The notes under the pieces were generated by a model. It saw nothing but the letters and a program-made list of their open reading frames with translations. It did not search any database and was not told the DNA's origin. Below are positions 6,007 to 56,727 of a DNA stretch of 64,000 bases, in pieces. Each line of letters opens with the position of its first letter. Positions within the stretch are counted from its first letter, which is position 1. Made by a program: the position numbers and the translations under genes. Source of the DNA: a bacterium (lineage in GTDB: Bacteria; Patescibacteriota; Minisyncoccia; Minisyncoccales; JANBVM01); the NCBI GenBank assembly GCA_030588745.1, contig JAUUXB010000002.1:4683-68682 (forward strand). Reading direction: 5' to 3'.

Positions 6007-6085
6007 ATTCTTTTATTTTAGCAGAAAAATCGTCTTTTTGACGATTTCTCTATACAATTACACCTAATTATATGCAATTTTATCT

Positions 6086-6112
6086 GCTCCGGGAGACGGA
6101 CTCCGTTAGAAC
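6086..6112. other. att-like site GCTCC-N17-AGAAC
   Basis: GCTCCGGGAGACGGACTCCGTTAGAAC; same spacing as the sites at 49585, 50499 and 51063; hairpin AAATCGTC-TTTTT-GACGATTT at about 6027-6047. Confidence 0.7.
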
Positions 6113-17115: not shown

Positions 17116-17346
17116 TTGTCAACAGCAAAAGAAATAAAAGAATTAATAGATAGAATGAATAAGGGTGAAGTAAGTATAGATGAGGGTATAGATGAAATGG
17201 GTGATCTCTTCGGAGAAGAAATTCTAAAAGAGTATAAAAAAGAATATAAAAAGTCTGACTCTCGCCCCGATTACTGGAAGATTGCAATAAAGGGTTTAAA
17301 AAGAATGTTAGAAGAAATGGAAAGAATTGAAGAAACCGAGAAGTAA
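17116..17346 (+). CDS. orphan hypothetical protein (76 aa)
   Basis: TTGACA promoter at about 17066, GGAGA SD, TTG start, downstream hairpin with T-run. Confidence 0.65.
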   Translation: MSTAKEIKELIDRMNKGEVSIDEGIDEMGDLFGEEILKEYKKEYKKSDSRPDYWKIAIKGLKRMLEEMERIEETEK

Positions 17347-17478
17347 CTCAAAAGTTATTTTTTAAAAAACCAGATGTCTACATCTCGGTCTTTTTTTACC
17401 AAGTAGAGAAATTTTGATTTGTTCTGTAAATGATGAAGTTTTTAAAAAGAAAACTTCAGTCAAAATTCTTCTACTGGG

Positions 17479-47765: not shown

Positions 47766-49028
47766 TTAAAGTTTTAAAATCTTTTTAAATTTCTCTTTAT
47801 TATTAAATGGACCAATTAAAGCTAAGTTTAATTTCTGCGGCTGAAAAATATCTTTAGCAACCTTTAAAATATCGTTTGAGCTAACTTTATCAACTTTCTT
47901 AAAAATTTCTTTTAAGGTTAAAATCTTTCCCTCTAAAAGCTCTTGATTGGCAAAAAATGAAGCCAAAGCATCAGAGGGTTCCAACAGAAGCGCTGTTTTT
48001 CCTTTAACATAGTTCTTTGCTTTTTTTAATTCTGAAGCAGGAACTTTTTGTTTTGAAATTTTCTTGTATTCTTCAAGAACTGCTGAAATTACTGTTTCTA
48101 CTTTTTTATTATCCACTCCAATCTGGGTAAGTAAATAACCAGAATCAGGATTTGCTTCAGAAATAGTGCTGATGTAATAAGCTATACCCAGCTTCTCTCT
48201 TATTTTAACAAATAAACGGGAACTCATCATTCCTCCCAAAATAACAGCTAATAGTTTTTGAGCATATTTTTGAGCATGGAATAAATTATATGCCCTTGTC
48301 CCTAAACATAAATGGGTCTGGTCAGTTTTTCTTGTTTGAATGATTATTTCTGGCTCTGATTGTCTTTCAACAACTGATTGTTTTTTTAATGGCTCATCTT
48401 CTTTTATTCTTGAAAAGTATTTTTTAACCTTTTTAACTGCCAAATTACTGTTTATATTCCCGGCAACACAAACTATTGTATTTGACGCCACATATTGCTT
48501 ATCCATGTAATCAACTAGTTTTTTCCTTGTCATATTGGAAATATTCTCTTTTGTTCCAATAATATCCCAACCAGCAGGCTGGTCGCCATATAAAAGCTTA
48601 GACCATAATACATGAACATAAGTCATTGGGTGATCCAAACGCATATTAATTTCTTCAGTAATTACTCCTTTTTCTTTCTTTATTTCTTTAGAAGGCAAAG
48701 TAGAATTTAAAAAGATATCAGAAACCCAGTCCAGAGCAGTATCAAATTGGGTTGAAACTGTCTTGGCATAATATCCTGTGCACTCTTCTGAAGTAAAAGC
48801 ATTGTAAATTCCACCAATCTTATCCATAGTCTCGGCAATTGCTAATGTAGTTGGTCTTTTTTTTGTTCCTTCAAAATACATGTGTTCTAAAAAATGAGAA
48901 ATCCCATTAATATCTTTTTTCTCATACTTAGAGCCGGTTTTAACTAATACCAATACTGTCACAGCTTCTGTGTTTTTTTGAGGAACAATGATAATCCTTA
49001 AACCATTCTTAAGAGTTGTTTTAAACAT
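47766..49028 (-). CDS. M16 (pitrilysin-family) zinc peptidase
   Basis: HFLEH, NAFTS, GGMMSSRLF...REKLG. Confidence 0.93.
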   Translation of the reverse strand: MFKTTLKNGLRIIIVPQKNTEAVTVLVLVKTGSKYEKKDINGISHFLEHMYFEGTKKRPTTLAIAETMDKIGGIYNAFTSEECTGYYAKTVSTQFDTALDWVSDIFLNSTLPSKEIKKEKGVITEEINMRLDHPMTYVHVLWSKLLYGDQPAGWDIIGTKENISNMTRKKLVDYMDKQYVASNTIVCVAGNINSNLAVKKVKKYFSRIKEDEPLKKQSVVERQSEPEIIIQTRKTDQTHLCLGTRAYNLFHAQKYAQKLLAVILGGMMSSRLFVKIREKLGIAYYISTISEANPDSGYLLTQIGVDNKKVETVISAVLEEYKKISKQKVPASELKKAKNYVKGKTALLLEPSDALASFFANQELLEGKILTLKEIFKKVDKVSSNDILKVAKDIFQPQKLNLALIGPFNNKEKFKKILKL

Positions 49029-49218
49029 AGTTAATATTTATATTTTAGCAAAAAACCGCTCGATTGGCGATTTTTTACTAGCTCCAGTGACAGAACTCTT
49101 CATTTGTTAAAACTATGAATGGGCACAATAAATAGGTGATTGCCACACCATCAAAGCAATCAAAAAGAAAAACACCCATTCTGGGTGATTTCTTTTATTT
49201 GATTTACTGAATTAATTC

Positions 49219-49416
49219 TTAAAGGCGGGTTACGTTTGTTGCGTTAGGACCCTTTGGAGAATCAACTTTTTCGAAAGATACTCTATCACCTACTTTTAAC
49301 TCTTCGTAGGTTACGCCCTTAAGTTCGTTGCTATGAAAGAATAAATCTTTCTCTTCACCATCAACGGTAATAAATCCAAATCCTTTATCTGTAAGATTTT
49401 TAATTGTTCCTTCCAT
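49219..49416 (-). CDS. cold-shock protein
   Basis: KGFGFI RNP1, LFFH RNP2, KGPNATNV; TTGACC-17-TAATAT promoter, ~100-nt 5' UTR, terminator. Confidence 0.95.
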   Translation of the reverse strand: MEGTIKNLTDKGFGFITVDGEEKDLFFHSNELKGVTYEELKVGDRVSFEKVDSPKGPNATNVTRL

Positions 49417-49710
49417 GATTGTGATATAAATTAATTAATGTTTTAAGATTTTATCTCAAAGCTTAGTTCCTTGAATAAGTTCGACTAAATTTTTATCAGG
49501 CAACTATCTTATATGAACAATATTAACATCTAAAAAATAATTGGTCAACCAAAAAACCGCCCAAGAGGCGATTCTTTGAATTTGGCTCCGGGGATGGTAC
49601 AATATTAGAACTTGGTTTATGGAAGGATTTTCTACAGTCAAATCAATTCAATTATCATTTTAAAGTCTAAAAGAATAAAAAAGAGAGAGTTTCCTAAAAG
49701 GTACTCTCTT

Positions 49711-50307
49711 TTATCGGATTTCAGAAAATTCAACTCGTTCGATAGAACTCTCCAGGAAAATAACGCAGGAGATATAATCACTGAGGGCTAAAATAGCTCC
49801 GAAGTTATTTTCTTCAAAAAACCTCTTATGTGATGGAAATCCAAAGTGTTTCATTTTTTCCTCTAGAAACTCTCCTCTACTATTTTTCAACTCTCGCCAT
49901 GTATTTTCTTTGCCTCTTTCATTCCACGAGTTCAATATATCTCTGTGGAATGGATTGTTTGGATCAAAAAGGAAATATCCTCTTCGGAAGTAAAATCGTA
50001 CAATGAAAATCGGCAAATGAGCAAAACTAAAAGTGTTACAGGGGGCAAATAATGCCGTCCAAATACCTGGGTAATTTCCCTTAGTAATCCATTCTTGAGG
50101 AACTCTTCCAAATTGTTTCCACTCTTCTTGCATTTTTTCAAAATGTTCTCGTTCATGAACTCTATGAAAATAACCAACTTGGTTATATTGAGATAACTCA
50201 ATTCTATTTGAAGTGGTTAATAGTTTATAAGTTTCCTTCCACAGCTTACTTCTCCATCTTGTATAATCTTGCTTTAAACCCAACCAATCAATAACCTTTG
50301 ATTCCAT
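49711..50307 (-). CDS. orphan hypothetical protein (cassette cargo)
   Basis: AGGAGG SD favours the ATG at 50307 over 50325; own promoter and terminator. Confidence 0.65.
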   Translation of the reverse strand: MESKVIDWLGLKQDYTRWRSKLWKETYKLLTTSNRIELSQYNQVGYFHRVHEREHFEKMQEEWKQFGRVPQEWITKGNYPGIWTALFAPCNTFSFAHLPIFIVRFYFRRGYFLFDPNNPFHRDILNSWNERGKENTWRELKNSRGEFLEEKMKHFGFPSHKRFFEENNFGAILALSDYISCVIFLESSIERVEFSEIR

Positions 50308-50628
50308 GAGTGATAACCTCCTCATCTAATATAAAGTTGTTAATTTTCTACCCGTTTATCTTACAAGAATTTAACAAAAAATCAACCCCAAACAAAAAAA
50401 ATTGCTAATTTAGCGAAAAGTTCTAGTCCTACTCTGGGTTAAGGAAAAAACCTGCCAAAATAGCAGATTTTTAAATTCAAGTTCTAGCAAAAAGTGGGGC
50501 TCCCCTTATTGGACGCGTTCAGAACCATTGATTGGAGAGAAATTCGGGAAAATCTTAGAGAAATAGAATCTTTATTAGTAAGGAATTAAAATAAAAAATG
50601 GTGCTTTTTTGCACCAATTGACTTTAAT

Positions 50629-50949
50629 TTAATCATACATTTTTTCTAACTCCTTCATATCTTTTTCTGCATAGTCCTTGCCAAGCAGTGTTAGTTTATA
50701 ACCTCTTCCTGTTTCTTCCACTAAACAGTGTCGTATCATATCCACGATCACTTCTTGAACTTCGTCACTGTAATCAGACTGGTATCCAAAATCAATTAAC
50801 TCAAATCTCTCTTTATCTTCCTTTTTCATTTTCTTAACCTCTCTGTGAATATAAAGGGAGTCAAGTTCTCTATTTCTTTCTATAAGTTTCAAAATTATAC
50901 CAGTGAGGAGATTTCTAATTTCCTTAAAAACTGGGGTATAAATTGTCAT
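50629..50949 (-). CDS. small winged-helix-like protein (cassette cargo)
   Basis: YSDEVQEVIVDM...LVEE...YKLTLLGKDY resembles a wHTH; GGAGG SD. Confidence 0.6.
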   Translation of the reverse strand: MTIYTPVFKEIRNLLTGIILKLIERNRELDSLYIHREVKKMKKEDKERFELIDFGYQSDYSDEVQEVIVDMIRHCLVEETGRGYKLTLLGKDYAEKDMKELEKMYD

Positions 50950-51030
50950 TTCTATCCCTCCGATTGATATTATTTTTAAATTTAATTTTCTACCTTGCTT
51001 CTACTCAATCTTTTGAGTTTTGTCAAACTA

Positions 51031-51058
51031 AAAACCCGAGAAACAATCTCGGGCTGAA
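51031..51058. repeat. 28-bp hairpin repeat, copy 1
   Basis: AAAACCCGAGAAACAATCTCGGGCTGAA. Confidence 0.9.
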
Positions 51059-51136
51059 CAGAGCTCCGGGTCTTGGACGATGTTAGAACCTGTTTTGAAA
51101 TAAAAAAAATGGCCGATAGATAAATCATACGGCTTT

Positions 51137-51376
51137 TTAACTTATTATTTTTCCTTCGTTAAGAGCTTTTATCTTCTCGTCCATCTCTTTATTTTGTATT
51201 GCTGTTTGAAATGGAAACAAAGCTTTTTCCATAAACTTCTTTGCTACCATTGCGGTAAGATAGTCGGTTTCTTCTTTGCTGCCGTCAGAACTATCCAAAA
51301 TAATGCTATCTGCAGCACTAACTGCACCTTCAACTATTTTATTTCGTCTATATTCTATTTCTTGCCATTTTTCCAT
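51137..51376 (-). CDS. orphan hypothetical protein, about 79 aa (cassette cargo)
   Basis: AGGAGG SD favours the ATG at 51376 (MEKWQ). Confidence 0.6.
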   Translation of the reverse strand: MEKWQEIEYRRNKIVEGAVSAADSIILDSSDGSKEETDYLTAMVAKKFMEKALFPFQTAIQNKEMDEKIKALNEGKIIS

Positions 51377-51437
51377 TTTAAGGTTCAACCTCCTTTTATT
51401 TAGTAACCTTAGCATGCCAAATTAAATCAAAAAAGTC

Positions 51438-51465
51438 AAAACCCGAGAACCAATCTCGGGCTGAA
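51438..51465. repeat. 28-bp hairpin repeat, copy 2
   Basis: AAAACCCGAGAACCAATCTCGGGCTGAA; 27 of 28 bases identical to 51031-51058. Confidence 0.9.
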
Positions 51466-51610
51466 TTTGCTCCCCTAGTCGGTCTCGAACCTGTGGTTTA
51501 AAGGAAAATTAAGGGGTTTTCCAGGGTATCCCGCAATGCCTCTCGGTCGGGGCTCTTTTAAGCTAAAATGAGACAAATGAGACAGTGCTAAGGGGTATGG
51601 AAATTGTGTC

Positions 51611-52147
51611 TTATTTCTCAATTTCCTTAGCTAACTTTTCAAGCCCGAATCCATTTATTAATTCTATCTCTATGAGACTATCTTTAGCAAAAACTTTTCC
51701 ATCTTCTGTAAATTCACCAGTGGTGACAAAAAATCCTTTTTCGCCTTTTTCTTTGTTAAGATCTTGAATGGAACCAGCAAACTCTCTTACCTCTTTTGGT
51801 AGAACTTGATTTTTTCTTTTGCATTGAATAAAAAATCTTTTTCCATCCTTAAAGGCAATAACATCGATACCCTTATCTCCTGACCCACCAACCACTTTTG
51901 TTTTATATCCTAAACCCTCAAAGATAATGGCGACAATTCTCTCAAATTTTTTATGATTCATTGTTTTCCATTCAATCAATCTTTTGTGTTTCTTAAGCCA
52001 TTTTTCATCAAGCCATTTACTAATATATGACTTGGCTATGGAAATGACTACGGGGGTACTAAGTGCGATAACCCAAAACCACCAAAATGGTTTTATGAAA
52101 GTTATCCAAGGTGTTCTTATTGGTTCCGTATAATCAATGTGGATCAT
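51611..52147 (-). CDS. membrane-anchored Mrr-like restriction endonuclease
   Basis: N-terminal TM; FERIV...GDKGIDVIA...IQCKR...VTTGEFT. Confidence 0.85.
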   Translation of the reverse strand: MIHIDYTEPIRTPWITFIKPFWWFWVIALSTPVVISIAKSYISKWLDEKWLKKHKRLIEWKTMNHKKFERIVAIIFEGLGYKTKVVGGSGDKGIDVIAFKDGKRFFIQCKRKNQVLPKEVREFAGSIQDLNKEKGEKGFFVTTGEFTEDGKVFAKDSLIEIELINGFGLEKLAKEIEK

Positions 52148-52182
52148 TTTTTATTTTCTTAATTTTTTCTTTCATGGATTTT

Positions 52183-53064
52183 TCATTTTCCTATTTCAAT
52201 TTGAGAAGGGTTTTTTAGAATGATTTCCGGCCTGTCTTCATATTCCTTAATTTCACCCTTAATTCTAACTGTTTTTTGAGAATAATAGTCCTCTGGACTC
52301 TGAACAAACTTATATTGGTCTGAACTAAAAATTACACTAACAAAACATTGGTTAGGATATGATTTTTCGAAATTTAAAAAGACTGTATTAGTTTTTGATC
52401 TATAAGTATCAACAATCTTCCCCTCAATAATTATTTCTTTTCCTAAATAATTTCCTGCCTGACAAGCGCCAACAATTTTTAATCCTGTTAATTCAGAAGT
52501 TAATTTTTCCCATCGAAACCCAATCTTTTCATCTTCTTCTATTATTCTCTCGCCCCATTTACAGCCAACTTTATTTTCTATGGCTTCTCTTTCTGCTTGA
52601 GCGATTTCTTCTTTATACTTCACATCTTCTGGAGAGAAACGAGCCACCGCTAATCCTTCTTTAACCAATTCCAGACTAATATTCTGATCGCTAAGAAAAA
52701 CATATCTCAAATATCGACACCATTGATCTTGATCTTCTTTTCCTTTTTCTAATTTTACCTCTTTGTTTAAAATCAACTCTTCTAACGCCTGTTTGGCTTC
52801 TTCATAACAAGGATGTCCTCTTTCATCGGCATCAATTCCTAAAATTCTAACTGAATAACCCCCTTCTATCATAAAAGTATCGCCATCAATAACCTTAGTT
52901 GTTAATTTTAAGGCCATATCGGAAAGCTCAGGAATACTTACACAATTCCCATCTTCACCATTATGGTTTTTCTCTCGATTAGAAATTATTATCGCTCCTC
53001 CAATAATTAAGGCTCCGACAATAATTGCCAAGAATATTCTGTTTTGTTTAAAAAATTCTTTCAT
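52183..53064 (-). CDS. thermonuclease (SNase) with C-terminal OB-fold, membrane-anchored
   Basis: VIDGDT, VRILGIDADE, RYLRYV, LVKEGLA; C-terminal FLNFEK...GEIKEYEDRPEII; start at ATG 53064. Confidence 0.88.
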   Translation of the reverse strand: MKEFFKQNRIFLAIIVGALIIGGAIIISNREKNHNGEDGNCVSIPELSDMALKLTTKVIDGDTFMIEGGYSVRILGIDADERGHPCYEEAKQALEELILNKEVKLEKGKEDQDQWCRYLRYVFLSDQNISLELVKEGLAVARFSPEDVKYKEEIAQAEREAIENKVGCKWGERIIEEDEKIGFRWEKLTSELTGLKIVGACQAGNYLGKEIIIEGKIVDTYRSKTNTVFLNFEKSYPNQCFVSVIFSSDQYKFVQSPEDYYSQKTVRIKGEIKEYEDRPEIILKNPSQIEIGK

Positions 53065-53072
53065 TTTTAACC

Positions 53073-53861
53073 TTATTGATCCCAAATATCTTCTGTGAAA
53101 TTTAAAACTTTTACAATGGGCTTAATCCCTGCTTCCCTTATTATTTCTTTCAATATGGGTTGTTTAGAGATAAAGTTAGCCACTGGAGGACTACTTTTAT
53201 AATAAAATTTCACAAATTTCTTTCCTAAATTAGTTTTTAAAAGAAACGCATCTCTAAAATCTCTTAAAATATCAATTTCTGGAGCTAGCGGAGTTCCATA
53301 TGCGGCAGTGGCAATAAAACAACCTTCTTCGTCTCTGGATTCTGTTTTATATCGAGTATTAGCTTCCGAAGTAGATTCTCTCCAAAAACCCATTCCGAAG
53401 ATTTTTCCAGTATCTGTATCTTTCATAACCAAGAAATAAATTCTATTCCCGTCCTTCATTTTATAATACATAAGTATAGTTCCTAACCTTTCTTCAAGAT
53501 AAGGAGTTCTGCCCTCCACCCCTTCTTTTAATACATTCAACCCCCATATTTCATCTATTAAACTCAATGCAAATTGTGTCGTATTTTGTTCTGTCGGCTC
53601 CAAAAGAGGTTCAAAAGTTGCGCCATATTGACCTGTTTCCTCATTTTTACCTAGATACACATCAGCTAAACCATACCATTTTCCAAGGAATTGAATTTCT
53701 TCACTAACAGAAGAAGCGAAAACAGTCTCTTGTGACTTTATAGTGAATCCAGTTTGAGTTTTCAATCTGAAATCATTTAAGATGAGAATTATTAACAAAA
53801 CTAGCACAAAAATAATGCTTCCAAAAATTATTTTCCTATTTTTCTTAATTTTCTCTTTCAT
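53073..53861 (-). CDS. membrane protein with CFI-box-CTERM domain
   Basis: GCFIATAAYG...LRDFRD...FYYKSSPPVA. Confidence 0.85.
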   Translation of the reverse strand: MKEKIKKNRKIIFGSIIFVLVLLIILILNDFRLKTQTGFTIKSQETVFASSVSEEIQFLGKWYGLADVYLGKNEETGQYGATFEPLLEPTEQNTTQFALSLIDEIWGLNVLKEGVEGRTPYLEERLGTILMYYKMKDGNRIYFLVMKDTDTGKIFGMGFWRESTSEANTRYKTESRDEEGCFIATAAYGTPLAPEIDILRDFRDAFLLKTNLGKKFVKFYYKSSPPVANFISKQPILKEIIREAGIKPIVKVLNFTEDIWDQ

Positions 53862-53865
53862 AGAT

Positions 53866-54717
53866 TTATCCCGCTTTCTCTCTTAGCCCCTCGATCATAT
53901 ACTTTAAGATAAGACCAGAAAACGGCTCTTCATATTTTCTATCATCTATAGTAACAGTTAACTTTGCTAATTTTTCAGACCATATAAAATATTGCGTCTT
54001 TTGTTTTCTTTCTCTTCTTAACGCTATCCCATCACTGTATGAGTCTATAGAAATAATCTTGTCCAAATTCACGCTTAATGTCCTTTTTTGCCCAGTAAAA
54101 ACAATTCTTTTGTTCGTAAGGGTAAACATACCTTTGTCTATAACTCTTATTTCTTCGCGGGATTCACTTTTTGAACCAAAAGCCCCAACTCTAAAATAGA
54201 CTCCTTTTGCCACCCTAAAACTTGGACCACCATAACCACCACTACTTACTCTTACCGAACGTGGTTCTTTTAATGAAATATTTGGAAGTACACATCTAAG
54301 TTCTTCGTCCTTTTTTAAAAGGATAGGTGATGGTATCCCTATAAACTTTATAGGCGCTTTTCCTTCTCTTATTGCATTCATCCATTCTTCCATATCTGCT
54401 TCCTTTTGTTTAACATCTGACATTCCGCCATTGGCTATATTTTTCCATTCTCTCGCGGTTAAAGTCTGGTTTCTGTATTCCTGCCAAATTAGACTAGATG
54501 CGTCTTGAACTTTAGAAAGCTTATGCTTTTCTCCACGTCTAGCAAAGATTGCATCACATTTATTACACTCAAAACTCTTAATGGTTAGTAAGCCAAATAT
54601 CTTCTTCCTGATGGTTTCTATTAGTTGTCCAGACTTGCATACGGGGCACTTTGTAAGCCAAGAGGTTCCAATAGGATTACCATGGTCATTTAATGTTTTC
54701 TTAATTTTTTCTTCCAT
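53866..54717 (-). CDS. zinc-ribbon plus PH-like domain protein
   Basis: CPVC/CNKC; GGPSFRVAKGV; DKGMFTLTNKRIVF; likely start at ATG 54717. Confidence 0.7.
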   Translation of the reverse strand: MEEKIKKTLNDHGNPIGTSWLTKCPVCKSGQLIETIRKKIFGLLTIKSFECNKCDAIFARRGEKHKLSKVQDASSLIWQEYRNQTLTAREWKNIANGGMSDVKQKEADMEEWMNAIREGKAPIKFIGIPSPILLKKDEELRCVLPNISLKEPRSVRVSSGGYGGPSFRVAKGVYFRVGAFGSKSESREEIRVIDKGMFTLTNKRIVFTGQKRTLSVNLDKIISIDSYSDGIALRRERKQKTQYFIWSEKLAKLTVTIDDRKYEEPFSGLILKYMIEGLREKAG

Positions 54718-54721
54718 AGAT

Positions 54722-54952
54722 TTATTCATTAACACCATTTTTTCTTAGACACATTTTATAATAAACCTCGTAATCATCGAGCTTAAATTTACCTTCGGCA
54801 CAAGTAGTACATTTTTCAATAGCTTTTTCTACTGCTATATTATGACAATTAGAATAAATTTGTGATGGTCTTATCTAACACCAATAAAAAGCACCACCAA
54901 CGATTAAGATAATAATTGCTATCCACCAATATTCCTTAATTTTTTCTTTCAT
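54722..54952 (-). pseudogene. small membrane-anchored Cys-rich protein with an in-frame TAG at codon 26
   Basis: MKEKIKEYWWIAIIILIVGGAFYWC*IRPSQIYSNC...YYKMCLRKNGVNE; TAG at 54875-54877. Confidence 0.75.
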
Positions 54953-54972
54953 AGAGCTTTATGAAGTGCTTC

Positions 54973-55188
54973 TCAGTCAGAAGCCCCCTCTCTTATTTGT
55001 ATGACACAGGTTTGAATACAAGCACTTTTGTCGCTACTGCAATACTCATCACAACCGCACCTTCTTTTACATCTTTCGATAGGATCACCTGTGTATTTAT
55101 ACCAAATCAAATAACCAACAGTGATTGTTAGTGATAATAAAGATAAGGTAATAAGAATAAGGCAAATTATTTTGATTTTTTCTTTCAT
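54973..55188 (-). CDS. small membrane-anchored Cys-rich protein
   Basis: MKEKIK + TM + CKRRCGC...C...C...C. Confidence 0.75.
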   Translation of the reverse strand: MKEKIKIICLILITLSLLSLTITVGYLIWYKYTGDPIERCKRRCGCDEYCSSDKSACIQTCVIQIREGASD

Positions 55189-55326
55189 AGTGTTTCTTTA
55201 TCTTCAAAATAACCTTATTTAAAACAAAATTCAAGCCAAAATTAAAAACCCGATAAAGTCGGGTTGATAATGCTTCTCGGTCGCTCGAACCGAGCACTAG
55301 CCTGCTCCGGCGATAGGACTCGAACT

Positions 55327-56727
55327 TTAACGCTCAATTTTCTCTTTTAAAAATTCAACTAGCTCTTTGATTTTTATCCTAACTTGTTTTGTTGTATCCC
55401 TATCTCTAATAGTAACATCATTTTGCTTTAAAGAATCGTAATCAATGGTAATACAGTATGGAGTTCCTATTTCATCTTGAGAATAATAACGTTTACCAAT
55501 ATTACCTCTGTCATCCCAGGCAGTAGAAAATTCAGGCTTTAATATCTCATAAACTTGTTTGGCTTTCTTAACTAATTCTGGTTTGTTAGCCAACAAAGGA
55601 AATACTGCTGCTTTATAAGGCGCTAAATAAGGTTTTAATTTTAAAACGATGCGTTCTTCTTTTTTTCCTTTCTCTTCAGAATAAGCATCCAACAAGACTG
55701 TTAAAAAAGACCTGTCCATTCCAAATGTTGGCTCTACAACGTGAGGAATGAATTTTTCTCCTGTTTCTTTGTCTGTGTAACGTAAATCAACTCCTGATTT
55801 TTCCATATGGTTTTTTAAATCAAAATCAGTTCTATAAGCCAGCCCATAAAGTTCTTTAAAGCTTCCGAAAGGAAAACTATATTCTAAATCTTCTGTTTTT
55901 TTGGAATAATGAGACCTTTCTTCATCTGTGTGCTCCCGCCATCTTAGATTGTTTTTATTTACACCCAATATTTCAGTAGTCCATGTCCACATTTCTTTTT
56001 TCCAGTAATCAAATAATTTTTCCCATTTCTGTTTTTTAGGATTAAAGAAATATTCAAACTCAGAAAGATTAAACTGAAGAGTGCGGAAAATAAAATTACC
56101 TAGACTAATTTCATTTCTAAAAGCAGGGCCTGATTGAGCCAAGCCAAAAGGAAGGCCGGGCGATAAAGAATCTAGAACATTTTTAAAATTAACAAACATG
56201 CCTTGAGCAATTTCTCCTCTTAAATAAGCTAAAGACTTATTCTCAGGAACAATACCAATATGGGTTTCAAACAAAAGATTGAATTTTCTTGGTTTGGTCC
56301 AATCAAAAGCCCCGCAAGACGAACAAACAAGTTTTTCTTTATCAATAATGTTTTTAATTTCTTCAACATCGAAACCTTCAACTTTTATCTCATTTCCTTT
56401 TTTCTCAAAATGGTCTTCAATTAAGTGATCAGCTCTAATTCTGCTTTTGCATTTCTTACAATCAACTAAAATATCTGTAAAACTATTAGTATGACCTGAG
56501 GCCTCCCATACTCTAGGACTCATAATAACTCCTGAATCAAGTCCATAAATATCTTCTCTATTATTAACAAAATGTTTCCACCAAAGATTTTTAATGTTAT
56601 GTAAGAGTTCAACACCCAAAGGCCCATAATCATAAGTATTTGCTAAACCACCATATATCTCAGAGCCTGGAAAAACAAAACCTCGTCTTTTCGCTAATGA
56701 TGTAATTTTTGCCATTTTATCAGCCAT
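55327..56727 (-). CDS. glyQS: glycine--tRNA ligase (alpha2 type)
   Basis: IYGG, DYGPLG, LRGEIAQG, FRNEI, EPTFGMDR, IGKRY. Confidence 0.95.
   Translation of the reverse strand: MADKMAKITSLAKRRGFVFPGSEIYGGLANTYDYGPLGVELLHNIKNLWWKHFVNNREDIYGLDSGVIMSPRVWEASGHTNSFTDILVDCKKCKSRIRADHLIEDHFEKKGNEIKVEGFDVEEIKNIIDKEKLVCSSCGAFDWTKPRKFNLLFETHIGIVPENKSLAYLRGEIAQGMFVNFKNVLDSLSPGLPFGLAQSGPAFRNEISLGNFIFRTLQFNLSEFEYFFNPKKQKWEKLFDYWKKEMWTWTTEILGVNKNNLRWREHTDEERSHYSKKTEDLEYSFPFGSFKELYGLAYRTDFDLKNHMEKSGVDLRYTDKETGEKFIPHVVEPTFGMDRSFLTVLLDAYSEEKGKKEERIVLKLKPYLAPYKAAVFPLLANKPELVKKAKQVYEILKPEFSTAWDDRGNIGKRYYSQDEIGTPYCITIDYDSLKQNDVTIRDRDTTKQVRIKIKELVEFLKEKIER

What the first reader, a model, noticed from the sequence alone, without database searches (positions are those of the whole stretch)
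49050..55326. Recombinase-less tandem array of gene cassettes delimited by tRNA-3'-like att sites (integron-like system)
Seen: six sites follow an A-run + hairpin and start with GCTCC (49081, 49585, 50499, 51063, 51469, 55304). Three are exactly GCTCC-N7-G(G/T)AC-N6-AGAAC (49585, 50499, 51063). Two are GCTCC-N7-GG(A/T)C-TCGAAC (51469, 55304), and 49081 is a decayed version. Each small unit (about 500, 910, 560, 410 bp) holds one minus-strand gene with its own terminator and a TTGA -35 at the unit's right end, mostly abutting the next hairpin; the last unit (about 3.8 kb) is an operon. No integrase is present in the window. Established: GGACTCGAAC...GCTCC read on the minus strand (GTTCGAGTCC...GGAGC) is a tRNA T-arm/acceptor end, a classic integration target. 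Inference: non-autonomous mini-elements were integrated one after another by a recombinase acting in trans, building an integron-like array with sites unrelated to attC.
Basis: partly seen in the sequence, partly recalled or inferred. Interest (0 to 1): 0.9.

Follow-up and report, generated by a model that had tools for sequence, protein, structure and literature searches.

The report
Gene-cassette array at tRNA-Asn-like sites
Between two housekeeping genes of a tiny-genome (CPR) bacterium lies a fast-changing row of small gene units, each ending in a short copy-like version of the end of the asparagine tRNA gene, which look like the docking scars of serine-recombinase mobile elements that load new genes into these minimal genomes.

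Summary
All six sites exist at the stated coordinates: 5 match GTTCNRRN{8,13}SSGGAGC on the minus strand, and a 6th match lies at 6086, against 0.01 expected.

Site 55304 is a 22-nt copy of the 3' end of the genome's own tRNA-Asn. In the three same-genus genomes the glyS–M16 interval holds different genes (about 1.7, 3.2 and 25.6 kb, against 6.2 kb here). Synteny breaks at GGAGC.

The 27-nt sites are the element-side (P) arm of the attP of large serine recombinase (LSR) elements that integrate at the tRNA-Asn 3' end:
- Autonomous elements in two relatives run tRNA-Asn|LSR…cargo…27-nt site.
- The arm encodes the LSR C-terminal tail; the window's remnant is at 50500–50589.
- The 27 vs 22 nt spacing equals the 5-bp attP/attB shift published for LSRs.

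Whole cassettes recur in other genera with these boundaries. The motif forms arrays of up to 8 units in many CPR genomes, some of which have no serine recombinase.

Verdict: a site-specific accretion array of recombinase-less units. It resembles an integron in layout only. Movement in trans is plausible but unproven. It is a new variant of a known kind, and I found no description of it in print.

The parts
55327..56727 (-). glyS-like gene (466 aa), the conserved flank. Its stop codon abuts the first site.
Evidence: ORF. It is 83-88% identical in protein to three same-genus genomes.
55304..55325 (-). Type A site: a 22-nt copy of the tRNA-Asn 3' end (T-loop to discriminator), GTTCGAGTCCTATCGCCGGAGC. 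It has B-type (attB-like) spacing and anchors the array.
   Evidence: It differs by 1 mismatch from the true tRNA-Asn at C23:7589-7610. The same fragment follows the glyS stop in G001 and G002.
55269..55303 (-). Module X, a 35-nt trailer with a T-arm-like hairpin (CTCGG TTCGAGCGA CCGAG). It also follows the true tRNA-Asn, and recurs after other sites in three genera.
   Evidence: It is present after the tRNA-Asn of G000 but not of G001 or G003.
55247..55265 (-). Hairpin plus T-run (terminator-like) that opens unit 1.
51611..55188 (-). Unit 1 cargo, five co-directional ORFs: 71 aa; 290 aa; 262 aa with a CFI-box-CTERM domain; 300 aa SNase-like nuclease; 178 aa Mrr-like nuclease.
51469..51587 (-). 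Type B element. The 22-nt site GTTCGAGACCGACTAGGGGAGC lies at 51469-51490, with about 100 nt of conserved upstream sequence holding TGTCTCATTT repeats. At least 7 copies occur in 5 genomes. Its function is unknown.
   Evidence: Homology to other copies ends at GGAGC.
51440..51462 (-). Hairpin plus T-run that opens unit 2.
51137..51415 (-). Unit 2 cargo: a 92-aa ORF with no family match.
51063..51089 (-). Type C site (27 nt, P-type spacing): GTTCTAACATCGTCCAAGACCCGGAGC.
51033..51055 (-). Hairpin plus T-run that opens unit 3. It is 91% identical to the hairpin at 51440-51462.
50629..50949 (-). Unit 3 cargo: a 106-aa ORF with no family match.
50499..50525 (-). Type C2 site (27 nt): GTTCTGAACGCGTCCAATAAGGGGAGC.
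50500..50589 (+). Remnant of the 3' end of a large serine recombinase gene, on the strand opposite to the cargo. It reads LPLLDAFRTIDWREIRENLREIESLLVRN followed by a stop.
   Evidence: It is homologous to the C-terminal tails of the full-length LSRs of L215 and L205. The 100-nt block is conserved in G002 and G063.
50452..50466 (-). Short hairpin plus T-run that opens unit 4.
   Evidence: Read from the sequence. The scan did not call it.
49711..50325 (-). Unit 4 cargo: a 204-aa ORF with no family match, with its own terminator-like hairpin at about 49665-49710.
   Evidence: No relative was found in metagenome contigs.
49585..49611 (-). Type C site (27 nt): GTTCTAATATTGTACCATCCCCGGAGC. The identical 27-mer occurs in G003, G008, G061 and G063, and a second time in this genome (C18) with unrelated flanks.
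49557..49571 (-). Hairpin plus T-run that opens unit 5.
   Evidence: Read from the sequence.
49173..49548 (-). Unit 5: a promoter-like TTGACC-17-TAATAT (49548-49520), the cold-shock protein gene (49219-49416) and its own terminator (49187-49173).
   Evidence: It is 93% identical in DNA to a cassette in the array of G008, another genus.
49081..49098 (-). Decayed site (GAGTTCTGTCACTGGAGC). Synteny with G001 and G003 resumes here.
49056..49070 (-). Hairpin plus T-run just upstream of the M16 peptidase gene. The same arrangement precedes this gene in G001 and G003.
47766..49028 (-). M16 peptidase gene, the conserved flank.

Best explanation
Window 49,050-55,326 is an insertion hot spot built by site-specific recombination at sequences that mimic the 3' end of tRNA-Asn.

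Anchor and units. The anchor is a 22-nt tRNA-Asn 3' fragment fused to the stop codon of glyS. Downstream, on the minus strand, lie five units. Each has the layout: terminator-like hairpin, promoter-like sequence, co-directional cargo gene(s), and a closing 22- or 27-nt GTTC...GGAGC motif.

What the 27-nt motifs are. They are the element-side (P) arm of the attP site of large serine recombinase (LSR) elements whose attB is the tRNA-Asn 3' end. In those elements the LSR gene runs across attP. Integration therefore leaves the last 15-35 codons of the LSR gene, together with the P arm, at the far end of the element.

How the array grows. Successive integrations next to the anchor push older units outward.

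Shown:
- the identity of the sites;
- hypervariability of the locus, with breakpoints at GGAGC;
- autonomous LSR elements with exactly these ends;
- a tandem of two such elements;
- cassettes shared between genera with these boundaries.

Inferred:
- that the window's own units arrived this way;
- that they lost the LSR module, or never had one;
- that they can still be moved by an LSR supplied in trans, or through alternative attL x P-arm excision.
For: 1. Sites are non-random and tRNA-derived.

2. The glyS-M16 interval differs in all four same-genus genomes: 6.2 kb here, 3.2 kb in G001, about 25.6 kb in G002 and about 1.7 kb in G003, with different genes. Site-like sequences sit at both borders in each.

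3. Of 100 inter-genome alignments of at least 150 nt among the fetched loci, 12 end within 10 nt of a GGAGC end in both partners. None does when the ends are shifted.

4. A HAM1/RdgB-like cassette (a name I give from the first residues, untested) is 90% identical in DNA between G001 and G008. In G001 it sits directly after the true tRNA-Asn; in G008 it sits inside an array. Homology starts just after the preceding GGAGC and ends at its own GGAGC, and the flanks are unrelated. Neighbouring core genes (dnaG/rpoD region) are only 72-74% identical.

5. LSR elements in G002 (11.3 kb) and G139 (13.9 kb), from different families of the order, have the structure: tRNA-Asn GGAGC | LSR on the opposite strand ... 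cargo ... 27-nt site. The LSR ORF overlaps the tRNA end by 13 nt. Both LSRs have the Resolvase, Recombinase and Zn_ribbon_recom domains.

6. 28 metagenome contigs hold the GGAGC|LSR-side junction. The left arm is tRNA-Asn-like with 22-nt spacing in 15 (one of these is a 3' fragment only) and a 27-nt type C2 arm in 6. In L209, tRNA-Asn | LSR element | type C2 | second LSR element form a tandem. In L205 and L215 the LSR ORF reads through the junction into the C2 arm (559 and 564 aa, against 535 aa when integrated).

7. The type C2 arms encode LPLLDAFRT(I/V)(D/N)W..., homologous to those LSR tails. 45 of 49 sites of 26-27 nt keep L[PR]..D..RT in that frame.

8. The shared GGTTC box lies 5 bp further from GGAGC in the P-type arms (27 nt) than in tRNA-Asn (22 nt). 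This is the shift of the zinc-ribbon-domain motif between attP and attB reported for LSRs (PMC3783163, passages read).

9. 58 of 83 sites are followed within 90 nt by a hairpin plus T-run, against 58 of 1000 random windows. Array ORFs run 168 with the sites and 45 against them.

10. The motif forms arrays in many genomes of the order. By my count from the table, 51 of 151 genomes have at least 4 matches, against 5 of 151 for the control pattern. G044 holds two arrays of 8.
Against: - There is no LSR in the window. This genome's single LSR sits at tRNA-His on another contig.
- Among the 17 genomes with at least 7 matches, only 9 have any serine recombinase, against 64 of 151 overall. The single-contig, array-rich G008 and G044 have none, and only one Xer-like tyrosine recombinase each.
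- The units' left ends (after GGAGC) are not conserved and do not resemble the LSR-side P' arm. I found no dyad symmetry around GGAGC in rebuilt attP and attB. Canonical LSRs need two half-sites and do not reuse attL or attR.
- For the csp cassette, homology with G008 starts at the T-run of the upstream hairpin and stops at csp's own terminator, not at GGAGC.
- No excised circle or empty site was seen. Contig joints at the sites had sides under 35 nt and fit cross-matches between repeats.
- The type B element (22-nt spacing, 100-nt extension) is not explained by the LSR-tail reading.
Confidence: 0.65

Rival explanations
1. A true integron-like capture system. The recombinase-less units are the normal mobile form: they excise as circles and reinsert at any GTTC...GGAGC site. 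An enzyme supplied in trans does this, either an LSR of a transient element or an unrecognised recombinase, and it needs only the conserved left arm.
For: - Cassette-precise homology between genera.
- Arrays of 8 units with near-identical 27-mers and different cargo in G044, a genome without a serine recombinase.
- An identical 27-mer with unrelated flanks in five genomes.
- Strong co-orientation of cargo with sites.
- L058 shows foreign 52% GC phage-like DNA joined exactly after GGAGC of a 27-nt site.
Against: - No circular junction was seen.
- There is no conserved right arm.
- No candidate enzyme is present in G008 or G044 other than one Xer-like protein.
- Some recombinase-less units are visibly deletion remnants that still carry the P' stub (L195, L197, L199).
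Confidence: 0.2
2. The sites are only fossils. Full LSR elements integrated long ago and decayed in place. Present variation arises from ordinary homologous recombination, after DNA uptake, between the short conserved repeats (P arms, terminator hairpins), not from site-specific movement of the small units.
For: - The csp cassette's boundaries lie at hairpins, not at GGAGC.
- Decayed sites occur at 49081 and in G003.
- LSR-deleted junctions are seen in L195, L197 and L199.
- Many array-rich genomes have no LSR.
Against: - The repeats are 22-33 nt, short for RecA-type exchange.
- The HAM1/RdgB-like cassette follows a tRNA in one genome and a 27-nt site in the other, and the two left flanks share little sequence.
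- The 27-mers are near-identical within G044's arrays, which is unlike old, decaying scars.
Confidence: 0.12
3. The motif works as RNA. It would be a tRNA-like 3'-UTR element before the terminator of each transcript, for example a processing or protein-binding signal, and its position at unit borders would be a by-product.
For: - It lies just upstream of a terminator-like hairpin in 58 of 83 cases.
- The type B copies show a short acceptor-like stem with one compensatory change.
- Module X is a T-arm-like hairpin.
Against: - No Rfam family matches.
- There is no intact T-arm or acceptor pairing in type A or C sites.
- There is no shared fold: alifold of type B gave -10 kcal/mol with few pairs.
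- Synteny and cassette breakpoints fall exactly at the motif.
- The motif is the coding 3' end of an LSR gene on the other strand.
Confidence: 0.03

Closest known systems
SCC composite islands and ccr-less pseudo-SCC elements of staphylococci (CcrAB/CcrC large serine recombinases at the 3' end of rlmH/orfX). Recalled; not read here.
   Same: LSR-driven integration at the 3' end of a conserved gene. Tandem arrays are separated by short direct att repeats. Some units lack the recombinase and are thought to be moved in trans. The LSRs here score best against the CcrB and XisF models, but far below the cut-offs.
   Different: The target is a tRNA-Asn 3' end or its ectopic fragments. The units are mostly 0.4-2 kb (median site spacing 1054 bp) instead of tens of kb. 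attP overlaps the LSR gene's own 3' end. The hosts are CPR bacteria with genomes of about 0.6 Mb.
Site-specific accretion of integrative elements and CIMEs (cis-mobilisable elements) at tRNA genes in streptococci. Recalled; not read here.
   Same: att-flanked units without recombination genes lie in tandem with autonomous elements at a tRNA 3' end. The newest insertion is next to the tRNA.
   Different: Those systems use tyrosine integrases and identical direct repeats. Here the arms differ (22 against 27 nt) in the way LSR attB and attP differ.
Tycheposons and tRNA-anchored genomic islands of Prochlorococcus (bioRxiv 10.1101/2020.12.28.424599; passages read).
   Same: Streamlined genomes. Islands lie next to tRNA genes. 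Tandem elements are separated by partial tRNA copies, and remnants with further partial tRNAs are scattered through the islands.
   Different: According to the passages read, tycheposons carry their own integrase and replication genes, occur at 1-2 per genome, and the repeats are partial tRNAs. Here there are regular arrays of recombinase-less mini-units closed by a conserved non-tRNA 27-nt arm. I could not see that paper's supplement, which lists its tandem examples.
Integrons and CALINs (clusters of attC sites lacking an integrase). Features recalled.
   Same: Arrays of small, co-oriented cassettes of mostly unknown function. Each ends in a recombination site. Cassettes are shared between distant hosts. 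Arrays occur without a nearby integrase.
   Different: There is no IntI, no attC-type imperfect palindrome and no common Pc promoter. The units carry their own promoter-like and terminator sequences.
Phage large serine integrases such as A118/LI (PMC3783163; passages read).
   Same: The domain set matches. The outer (zinc-ribbon-domain) motif lies 5 bp closer to the crossover in attB than in attP, which is mirrored by the 22 and 27 nt spacing of GGTTC to GGAGC.
   Different: No half-site dyad symmetry was detected. Integration next to an already integrated element occurs (L209). The int gene is split by integration.

Membership tests
Integron | An IntI-type tyrosine recombinase next to the array | tested here: not met
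   The genome's only tyrosine recombinase is on contig C26. It is XerC/XerD-like, and only its C-terminal 70 residues touch the integron-integrase models, far below the cut-off.
Integron | attC sites: an imperfect inverted repeat with R''/R' core boxes at the cassette's 3' end | tested here: not met
   The best inverted match of the 10-nt box within 160 nt downstream has the same distribution as upstream, over 82 sites.
Integron | Promoterless cassettes expressed from a common Pc | tested here: inconclusive
   Units start with a terminator-like hairpin and promoter-like hexamers. The promoter scan of the region is not above its shuffles (27 found against 27.9 expected), and there are no expression data.
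LSR integrative element (att sites) | A large serine recombinase gene (Resolvase + Recombinase + Zn_ribbon_recom) inside the element | tested here: not met
   Not met for the window's units: there is no hit on contig C2. Met for the related autonomous elements in G002, G139 and metagenome contigs.
LSR integrative element (att sites) | Hybrid attL/attR ends: host arm | element arm at one end, element arm | host arm at the other | tested here: met
   G002 and G139 have tRNA-Asn|P' at the LSR end and a 27-nt P arm at the far end. The window has the P arms only.
LSR integrative element (att sites) | The outer binding motif lies 5 bp closer to the crossover in attB than in attP | tested here: met
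   From GTTC to the GGAGC end is 22 nt in tRNA-Asn and 27 nt in type C arms. The rule comes from PMC3783163. Only the left arms could be tested.
LSR integrative element (att sites) | Two related half-sites (imperfect dyad) around a central dinucleotide | tested here: not met
   No dyad above background in rebuilt attP and attB (best 10-14 of 26 over many centres). The right arms are not conserved.
LSR integrative element (att sites) | Recombination activity on these sites | not testable with these tools
   This needs an in vivo or in vitro assay.
tRNA-anchored island with tandem elements (tycheposon-like / accretion) | A full tRNA at one end, partial tRNA copies between and after the units | tested here: met
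   Met at the tRNA-Asn loci of G000 (C23), G003 and G044. At the window's locus only a 3' fragment fused to glyS is present; there is no full tRNA.
tRNA-anchored island with tandem elements (tycheposon-like / accretion) | Each unit carries its own integrase | tested here: not met
   None of the five window units carries one.

The most novel reading that the evidence does not exclude
CPR bacteria of this order may run a recombinase-in-trans gene-capture system that works like an integron but is built on serine-recombinase chemistry. Promoter-bearing mini-cassettes would carry only the 27-33-nt P arm (AAACAGGTTCTAAC-N4-GTCC-N7-GGAGC). They would be excised and inserted as units at tRNA-Asn and at ectopic tRNA-Asn 3' fragments placed behind housekeeping genes. 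This would give 0.5-0.7 Mb genomes a dedicated, exchangeable accessory-gene rack shared across genera.
Probability: 0.25. Interest if true: 0.9.

Novelty: new variant of a known kind. Interest (0 to 1): 0.72.

Why it matters
CPR/Patescibacteria have minimal genomes and few recognised mobile elements, so how they gain and swap accessory genes is poorly understood.

This locus points to a concrete route that recurs across the lineage. It comprises tRNA-Asn-targeting serine-recombinase elements, plus long arrays of recombinase-less mini-cassettes closed by a conserved arm. Cassettes (csp, HAM1/RdgB-like) are shared between genera at 90-95% DNA identity, while core genes are far more diverged.

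It also yields testable attB/attP pairs for a new LSR clade whose gene spans its own attP. That is of practical interest for genome engineering.

The 33-nt motif is a simple marker for finding hypervariable islands in CPR assemblies. Contigs tend to break at these sites.

Three full-text searches listed no paper describing such arrays in CPR. I saw only the listings and the starts of the abstracts.

Tried and rejected
Rfam scan of 47-58 kb at E up to 10: four weak, unrelated hits and nothing tRNA- or tmRNA-like. ARAGORN finds no tRNA or tmRNA at the sites.

Terminator hairpin as a genome-wide uptake-type repeat: rejected. ATCGCC...GGCG[GA]TTTT occurs only 6 times in the genome.

attC-like pairing of the GGTTCTAAC box with a downstream inverted copy: rejected.

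Dyad symmetry of rebuilt attP and attB: none found.

RNA fold of the type B element: a weak consensus, with one possible compensatory pair. Not pursued further.

Sequencing runs: only assembled contigs were available.
- The site blocks have summed depths several-fold above the cargo.
- Many contigs diverge exactly at the site edges (49586/49621, 50499, 51063-51096, 51467-51575, 55276-55325).
- This shows only that the sites are repeats with many contexts.
- The joints (for example 49618 to 51075) have sides of 21-34 nt and fit cross-matches between site variants. The 'goes back' joint 51463 to 50498 does not have the sequence expected of a circle of these units.
- No excision or empty site can be claimed or denied.
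- Parts without cover in runs X2, X3 and X5 are not evidence.

Metagenome search with the 204-aa cargo protein: 42 pattern matches, none confirmed.

Viral contigs: 13 stretches matched the 16-base core, but 12 lack GGAGC and lie in coding DNA, so they are chance matches. Only L058 has a full site.

Strict type C pattern across the phylum: 3 of 401 genomes including this one.

Serine recombinase as a constant companion of arrays: not found (9 of 17 array-rich genomes against 64 of 151 overall).

Xer as the enzyme: considered, because it is the only recombinase in G008 and G044. I saw no dif-like dyad in the motif; this rests on reading the sequence, not on a test.

I looked for a distal P-type arm of this genome's tRNA-His LSR element and found none with a simple pattern.

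Full report
**Observation**

The region was read directly. Position 49081 holds a decayed copy.

On the minus strand the sites read GTTC...GGAGC. The pattern GTTCNRRN{8,13}SSGGAGC has 6 matches in the window, against 0.01 expected from shuffles. The sixth match, at 6086, lies outside the finding. Genome-wide there are 15 matches, against 1 for the backwards control.

The genome is 626 kb in 30 contigs, 32% G+C, and 95.6% complete.

**What the sites are**

ARAGORN finds 43 tRNAs. Only tRNA-Asn(GTT) on contig C23 ends in GGAGC. Window 55304-55325 differs from its last 22 nt at one position. The similarity runs on through about 30 nt of the tRNA's trailer (94% over 51 nt). The fragment starts at the T-loop, lacks the 5' half of the T-stem, and directly follows the glyS stop codon.

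I distinguish three kinds of site:
- Type A: copies of the tRNA-Asn 3' end, 22 nt from GTTC to GGAGC.
- Type B: GTTCGAGACCGACTAGGGGAGC, also 22 nt, preceded by about 100 conserved nt with TGTCTCATTT repeats.
- Type C: 27 nt, with the consensus AAACAGGTTCTAACATCGTCC-N7-GGAGC. This includes a C2 subtype, CCAATCAAYGGTTCTGAACGCGTCCAATARGGGGAGC, that carries a 100-nt conserved extension.

In this genome the sites cluster in a few places: the window; downstream of the true tRNA-Asn (C23); and on C18, C21 and C26.

**The locus is hypervariable and breaks at the sites**

Three same-genus genomes were found through GlyS (83-88% identity). Synteny with the window runs up to 49084 on the M16 side and from 55268 on the glyS side. 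Between these points the content differs:
- 6.2 kb in the window;
- 3.2 kb in G001;
- about 25.6 kb in G002;
- about 1.7 kb in G003.

All four genomes have a tRNA-Asn-like fragment near glyS and a site plus hairpin just before the M16 gene.

Downstream of the true tRNA-Asn the four genomes also differ, and homology stops 0-3 nt after GGAGC. Over all fetched loci, 12 of 100 inter-genome alignments of at least 150 nt end within 10 nt of a GGAGC end in both partners. None does after the ends are shifted.

**Cassettes move between genera**

A unit with a 184-aa ORF is 90% identical in DNA between G001 and G008, which is another genus of the same family. I call it HAM1/RdgB-like from its first residues; I did not test this name.
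- In G001 it directly follows the true tRNA-Asn. In G008 it lies inside an array, after a type C site.
- The shared stretch begins just after the preceding GGAGC and ends at the unit's own GGAGC.
- The flanks are unrelated on both sides.
- Neighbouring core genes (the dnaG/rpoD region) are 72-74% identical between these genomes.

The window's csp unit is 93% identical to a unit in the same G008 array, although GlyS of the two genomes is only about 50% identical. Here the shared stretch runs from the T-run of the upstream hairpin to csp's own terminator. The sites themselves are not included, which speaks against a single fixed boundary.

The 27-mer of site 49585 occurs unchanged in G003, G008, G061 and G063. 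It also occurs a second time in this genome (C18), with unrelated flanks.

**Spread**

In 151 genomes of the order, 130 have at least one match, as expected from tRNA-Asn itself. By my count from the table, 51 have four or more, against 5 for the control pattern, and 17 have seven or more, against 0 for the control.

G044 has two arrays. One follows a full tRNA-Asn. The other follows a tRNA-Asn 3' fragment fused to the end of a gene whose product starts like a GAPDH (a name from the first residues, untested). Each array holds eight sites 0.5-2 kb apart, with near-identical 27-mers, each followed by a similar hairpin.

Statistics across the fetched loci:
- Median site spacing is 1054 bp, with quartiles 699 and 2696.
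- 58 of 83 sites are followed within 90 nt by a hairpin plus T-run, against 58 of 1000 random windows.
- ORFs inside arrays run with the sites in 168 cases and against them in 45. Weighted by length this is 35,524 against 6,046 aa.
- Cargo families are diverse, and no recombinase recurs among them.

Their record titles are almost all Patescibacteria/CPR: Nealsonbacteria, Parcubacteria, Paceibacteria, Moranbacteria, Levybacteria, Curtissbacteria, Yanofskybacteria and others. A few carry other labels.

A strict pattern hit only 3 of 401 genomes drawn across the phylum, a sample with few members of this order.

**The recombinase link**

The window has no recombinase. The genome has one Xer-like tyrosine recombinase (C26) and one LSR (C20). 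The LSR's ORF overlaps the 3' end of tRNA-His by 10 nt.

In G002 a 535-aa LSR lies on the opposite strand directly after tRNA-Asn, overlapping it by 13 nt. The element ends 11.3 kb further on in a 27-nt site.

G139 belongs to another family of the order. It has an orthologous LSR and a shared 209-aa protein in the same arrangement, with different cargo and a 27-nt site 13.9 kb away. All three LSRs have the Resolvase, Recombinase and Zn_ribbon_recom domains.

I then scanned metagenome contigs for GGAGC followed by the first 16 nt of the LSR-side arm and found 28 contigs. Their left arms are:
- tRNA-Asn-like with 22-nt spacing in 15, one of which is a 3' fragment only;
- a 27-nt type C2 arm in 6;
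- a decayed fragment in 2;
- an AT-rich arm of another kind in 3;
- cut off by the contig end in 2.

Three results from these contigs matter most:
- L209 shows tRNA-Asn | a 9.6-kb element with an LSR of the type found on this genome's C20 | type C2 arm | the LSR side of a second element. This is a tandem in which the newer element lies next to the tRNA.
- In L205 and L215 the LSR ORF reads through the junction into the C2 arm and ends there (559 and 564 aa).
- In L195, L197 and L199 the 65-nt LSR-side stub is kept but the LSR gene is gone. So recombinase loss by deletion does occur.

**The arm is the end of the LSR gene**

The tails of the read-through LSRs (...LLPVLDAFRMVNWKKIKEEV... and ...LLPIGNLFRTVNWQQVKQDL...) are homologous to what every type C2 arm encodes on the strand opposite to the cargo. 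In the window, 50500-50589 (+) reads LPLLDAFRTIDWREIRENLREIESLLVRN followed by a stop.

Of 49 sites of 26-27 nt, 45 keep L[PR]..D..RT in that frame. This count is not independent of the DNA conservation.

The reading explains three things: the 100-nt conserved extension of type C2, the shorter extension of type C, and why the motif sits at the far end of each unit.

**Fit to LSR att-site geometry**

In the passages I read of Rutherford et al. 2013 (PMC3783163), the zinc-ribbon-domain motif lies 5 bp closer to the central dinucleotide in attB than in attP, at positions 11-19 against 16-24.

Here the shared GGTTC box lies 22 nt from the GGAGC end in tRNA-Asn and 27 nt from it in type C arms. Both place the crossover inside or next to the invariant GGAGC. 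That agrees with breakpoints at 0 to +3.

Against this reading:
- I found no dyad symmetry.
- The sequences to the right of GGAGC are not conserved.
- Canonical LSRs should not reuse attL, yet L209 shows that insertion next to a resident element happens.

**Most likely history of the window's array (inference)**

A tRNA-Asn 3' fragment behind glyS served as an ectopic docking site. Units were added by LSR-type recombination at GGAGC, with the newest next to glyS.

The hairpin at each unit's start replaces the terminator that integration displaces. The LSR-side arm of the autonomous elements also starts with a hairpin plus T-run.

The LSR modules may have been lost in either of two ways:
- by deletion;
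- by excision that used an internal P arm. This would leave recombinase-less units with exact GGAGC borders.

Whether the units still move, using an LSR from a transient element, is open.
- Among the 17 most array-rich genomes only 9 have any serine recombinase, against 64 of 151 overall.
- The single-contig genomes G008 and G044 have none, and just one Xer-like enzyme each.

**Cargo of the window's units**

The cargo consists of the following:
- a cold-shock protein;
- three small proteins with no family match (204, 106 and 92 aa);
- an operon with an Mrr-like nuclease, an SNase-like nuclease, a CFI-box-CTERM protein and two unknowns.

**Comparison with what is known**

Layout and scale resemble an integron or a CALIN, but the defining parts fail: IntI, attC and Pc.

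The process resembles three known systems:
- tandem accretion at tRNA genes;
- tycheposon islands (passages read);
- most closely, staphylococcal SCC composite islands with ccr-less units (recalled).

What is new:
- the CPR host range;
- the very small and numerous units;
- the conserved 27-33-nt arm, which doubles as the LSR gene's 3' end;
- ectopic tRNA-fragment anchors behind housekeeping genes.

Three full-text searches listed no description of this in CPR (listings only).

**Limits**

- Only assembled contigs could be laid on the window, so excision is neither shown nor excluded.
- The type B element and modules X and Y remain unexplained.
- Gene names given from the first residues were not tested.

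Noticed in passing
window 6086-6112 (-) and about 70 nt downstream of it on the minus strand (window about 6010-6085): A seventh site of type C (GTTCTAACGGAGTCCGTCTCCCGGAGC), far from the array. It is followed by a strong promoter-like module (TTGCAT-17-TATAGA-like; 'GATAAAATTGCATATAATT...GTATA') and a hairpin. The same module follows tRNA-Asp on C21 and sites on C18 and in G003 and G008.
   Followed up: partly
window 51469-51587; also G000 C21:77178-77324, C23:9381-9469; G001, G002 (two copies), G003, G063: The type B element is about 90-150 nt long. It has direct and inverted TGTCTCATTT repeats, a -10-like TAAAAT, a conserved AGCCCCGACCGAGAGGCATTG start and a tRNA-like end. It is neither a tRNA nor an Rfam family. 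It may be the arm of another integrase or a small RNA.
   Followed up: partly
window 55269-55303; G000 C23:7611-7645; G001, G008, G063: Modules X and Y are 34-nt T-arm-like hairpins (CTCGG TTCGAGCGA CCGAG plus AGGCAT). They are optionally inserted between GGAGC and the terminator hairpin: present after the tRNA-Asn of G000, absent in G001 and G003. G044 has a different palindromic module at the same position.
   Followed up: no
G000 contig C20:1130-5900 (L047): This genome's only large serine recombinase (492 aa) overlaps the 3' end of tRNA-His by 10 nt. It is followed by two ORFs of about 375 aa. This is probably a separate integrated element; I did not find its far end.
   Followed up: partly
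L058 (IMG/VR contig, 14.8 kb), first 124 nt in site orientation: An AT-rich cassette end with a full 27-nt site is joined, exactly after GGAGC, to about 52% G+C DNA with phage-like ORFs (named from their first residues only). It is either a prophage docked at a type C site or an assembly chimera.
   Followed up: partly
window 51700-54900, run X2: Several contig pieces of run X2 match the operon unit with 0-5 differences, while its listed piece on glyS differs at 17 of 255 positions. This hints that the same unit sits in a more distant background. The table of pieces may be cut, so it is a hint only.
   Followed up: no
L033 (G001), locus coordinates about 17200-17400, between glyS and M16: G001's version of the interval starts with a structured, G+C-rich leader before a two-gene operon. 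By eye it looked riboswitch-like; I did not scan it.
   Followed up: no
window 53073-53861 (-): A 262-aa protein with a CFI-box-CTERM domain (NF041770, 94.6 bits) sits in the operon with a secreted-type SNase-like nuclease and an Mrr-like nuclease. This may be a surface or DNA-scavenging or defence set.
   Followed up: no
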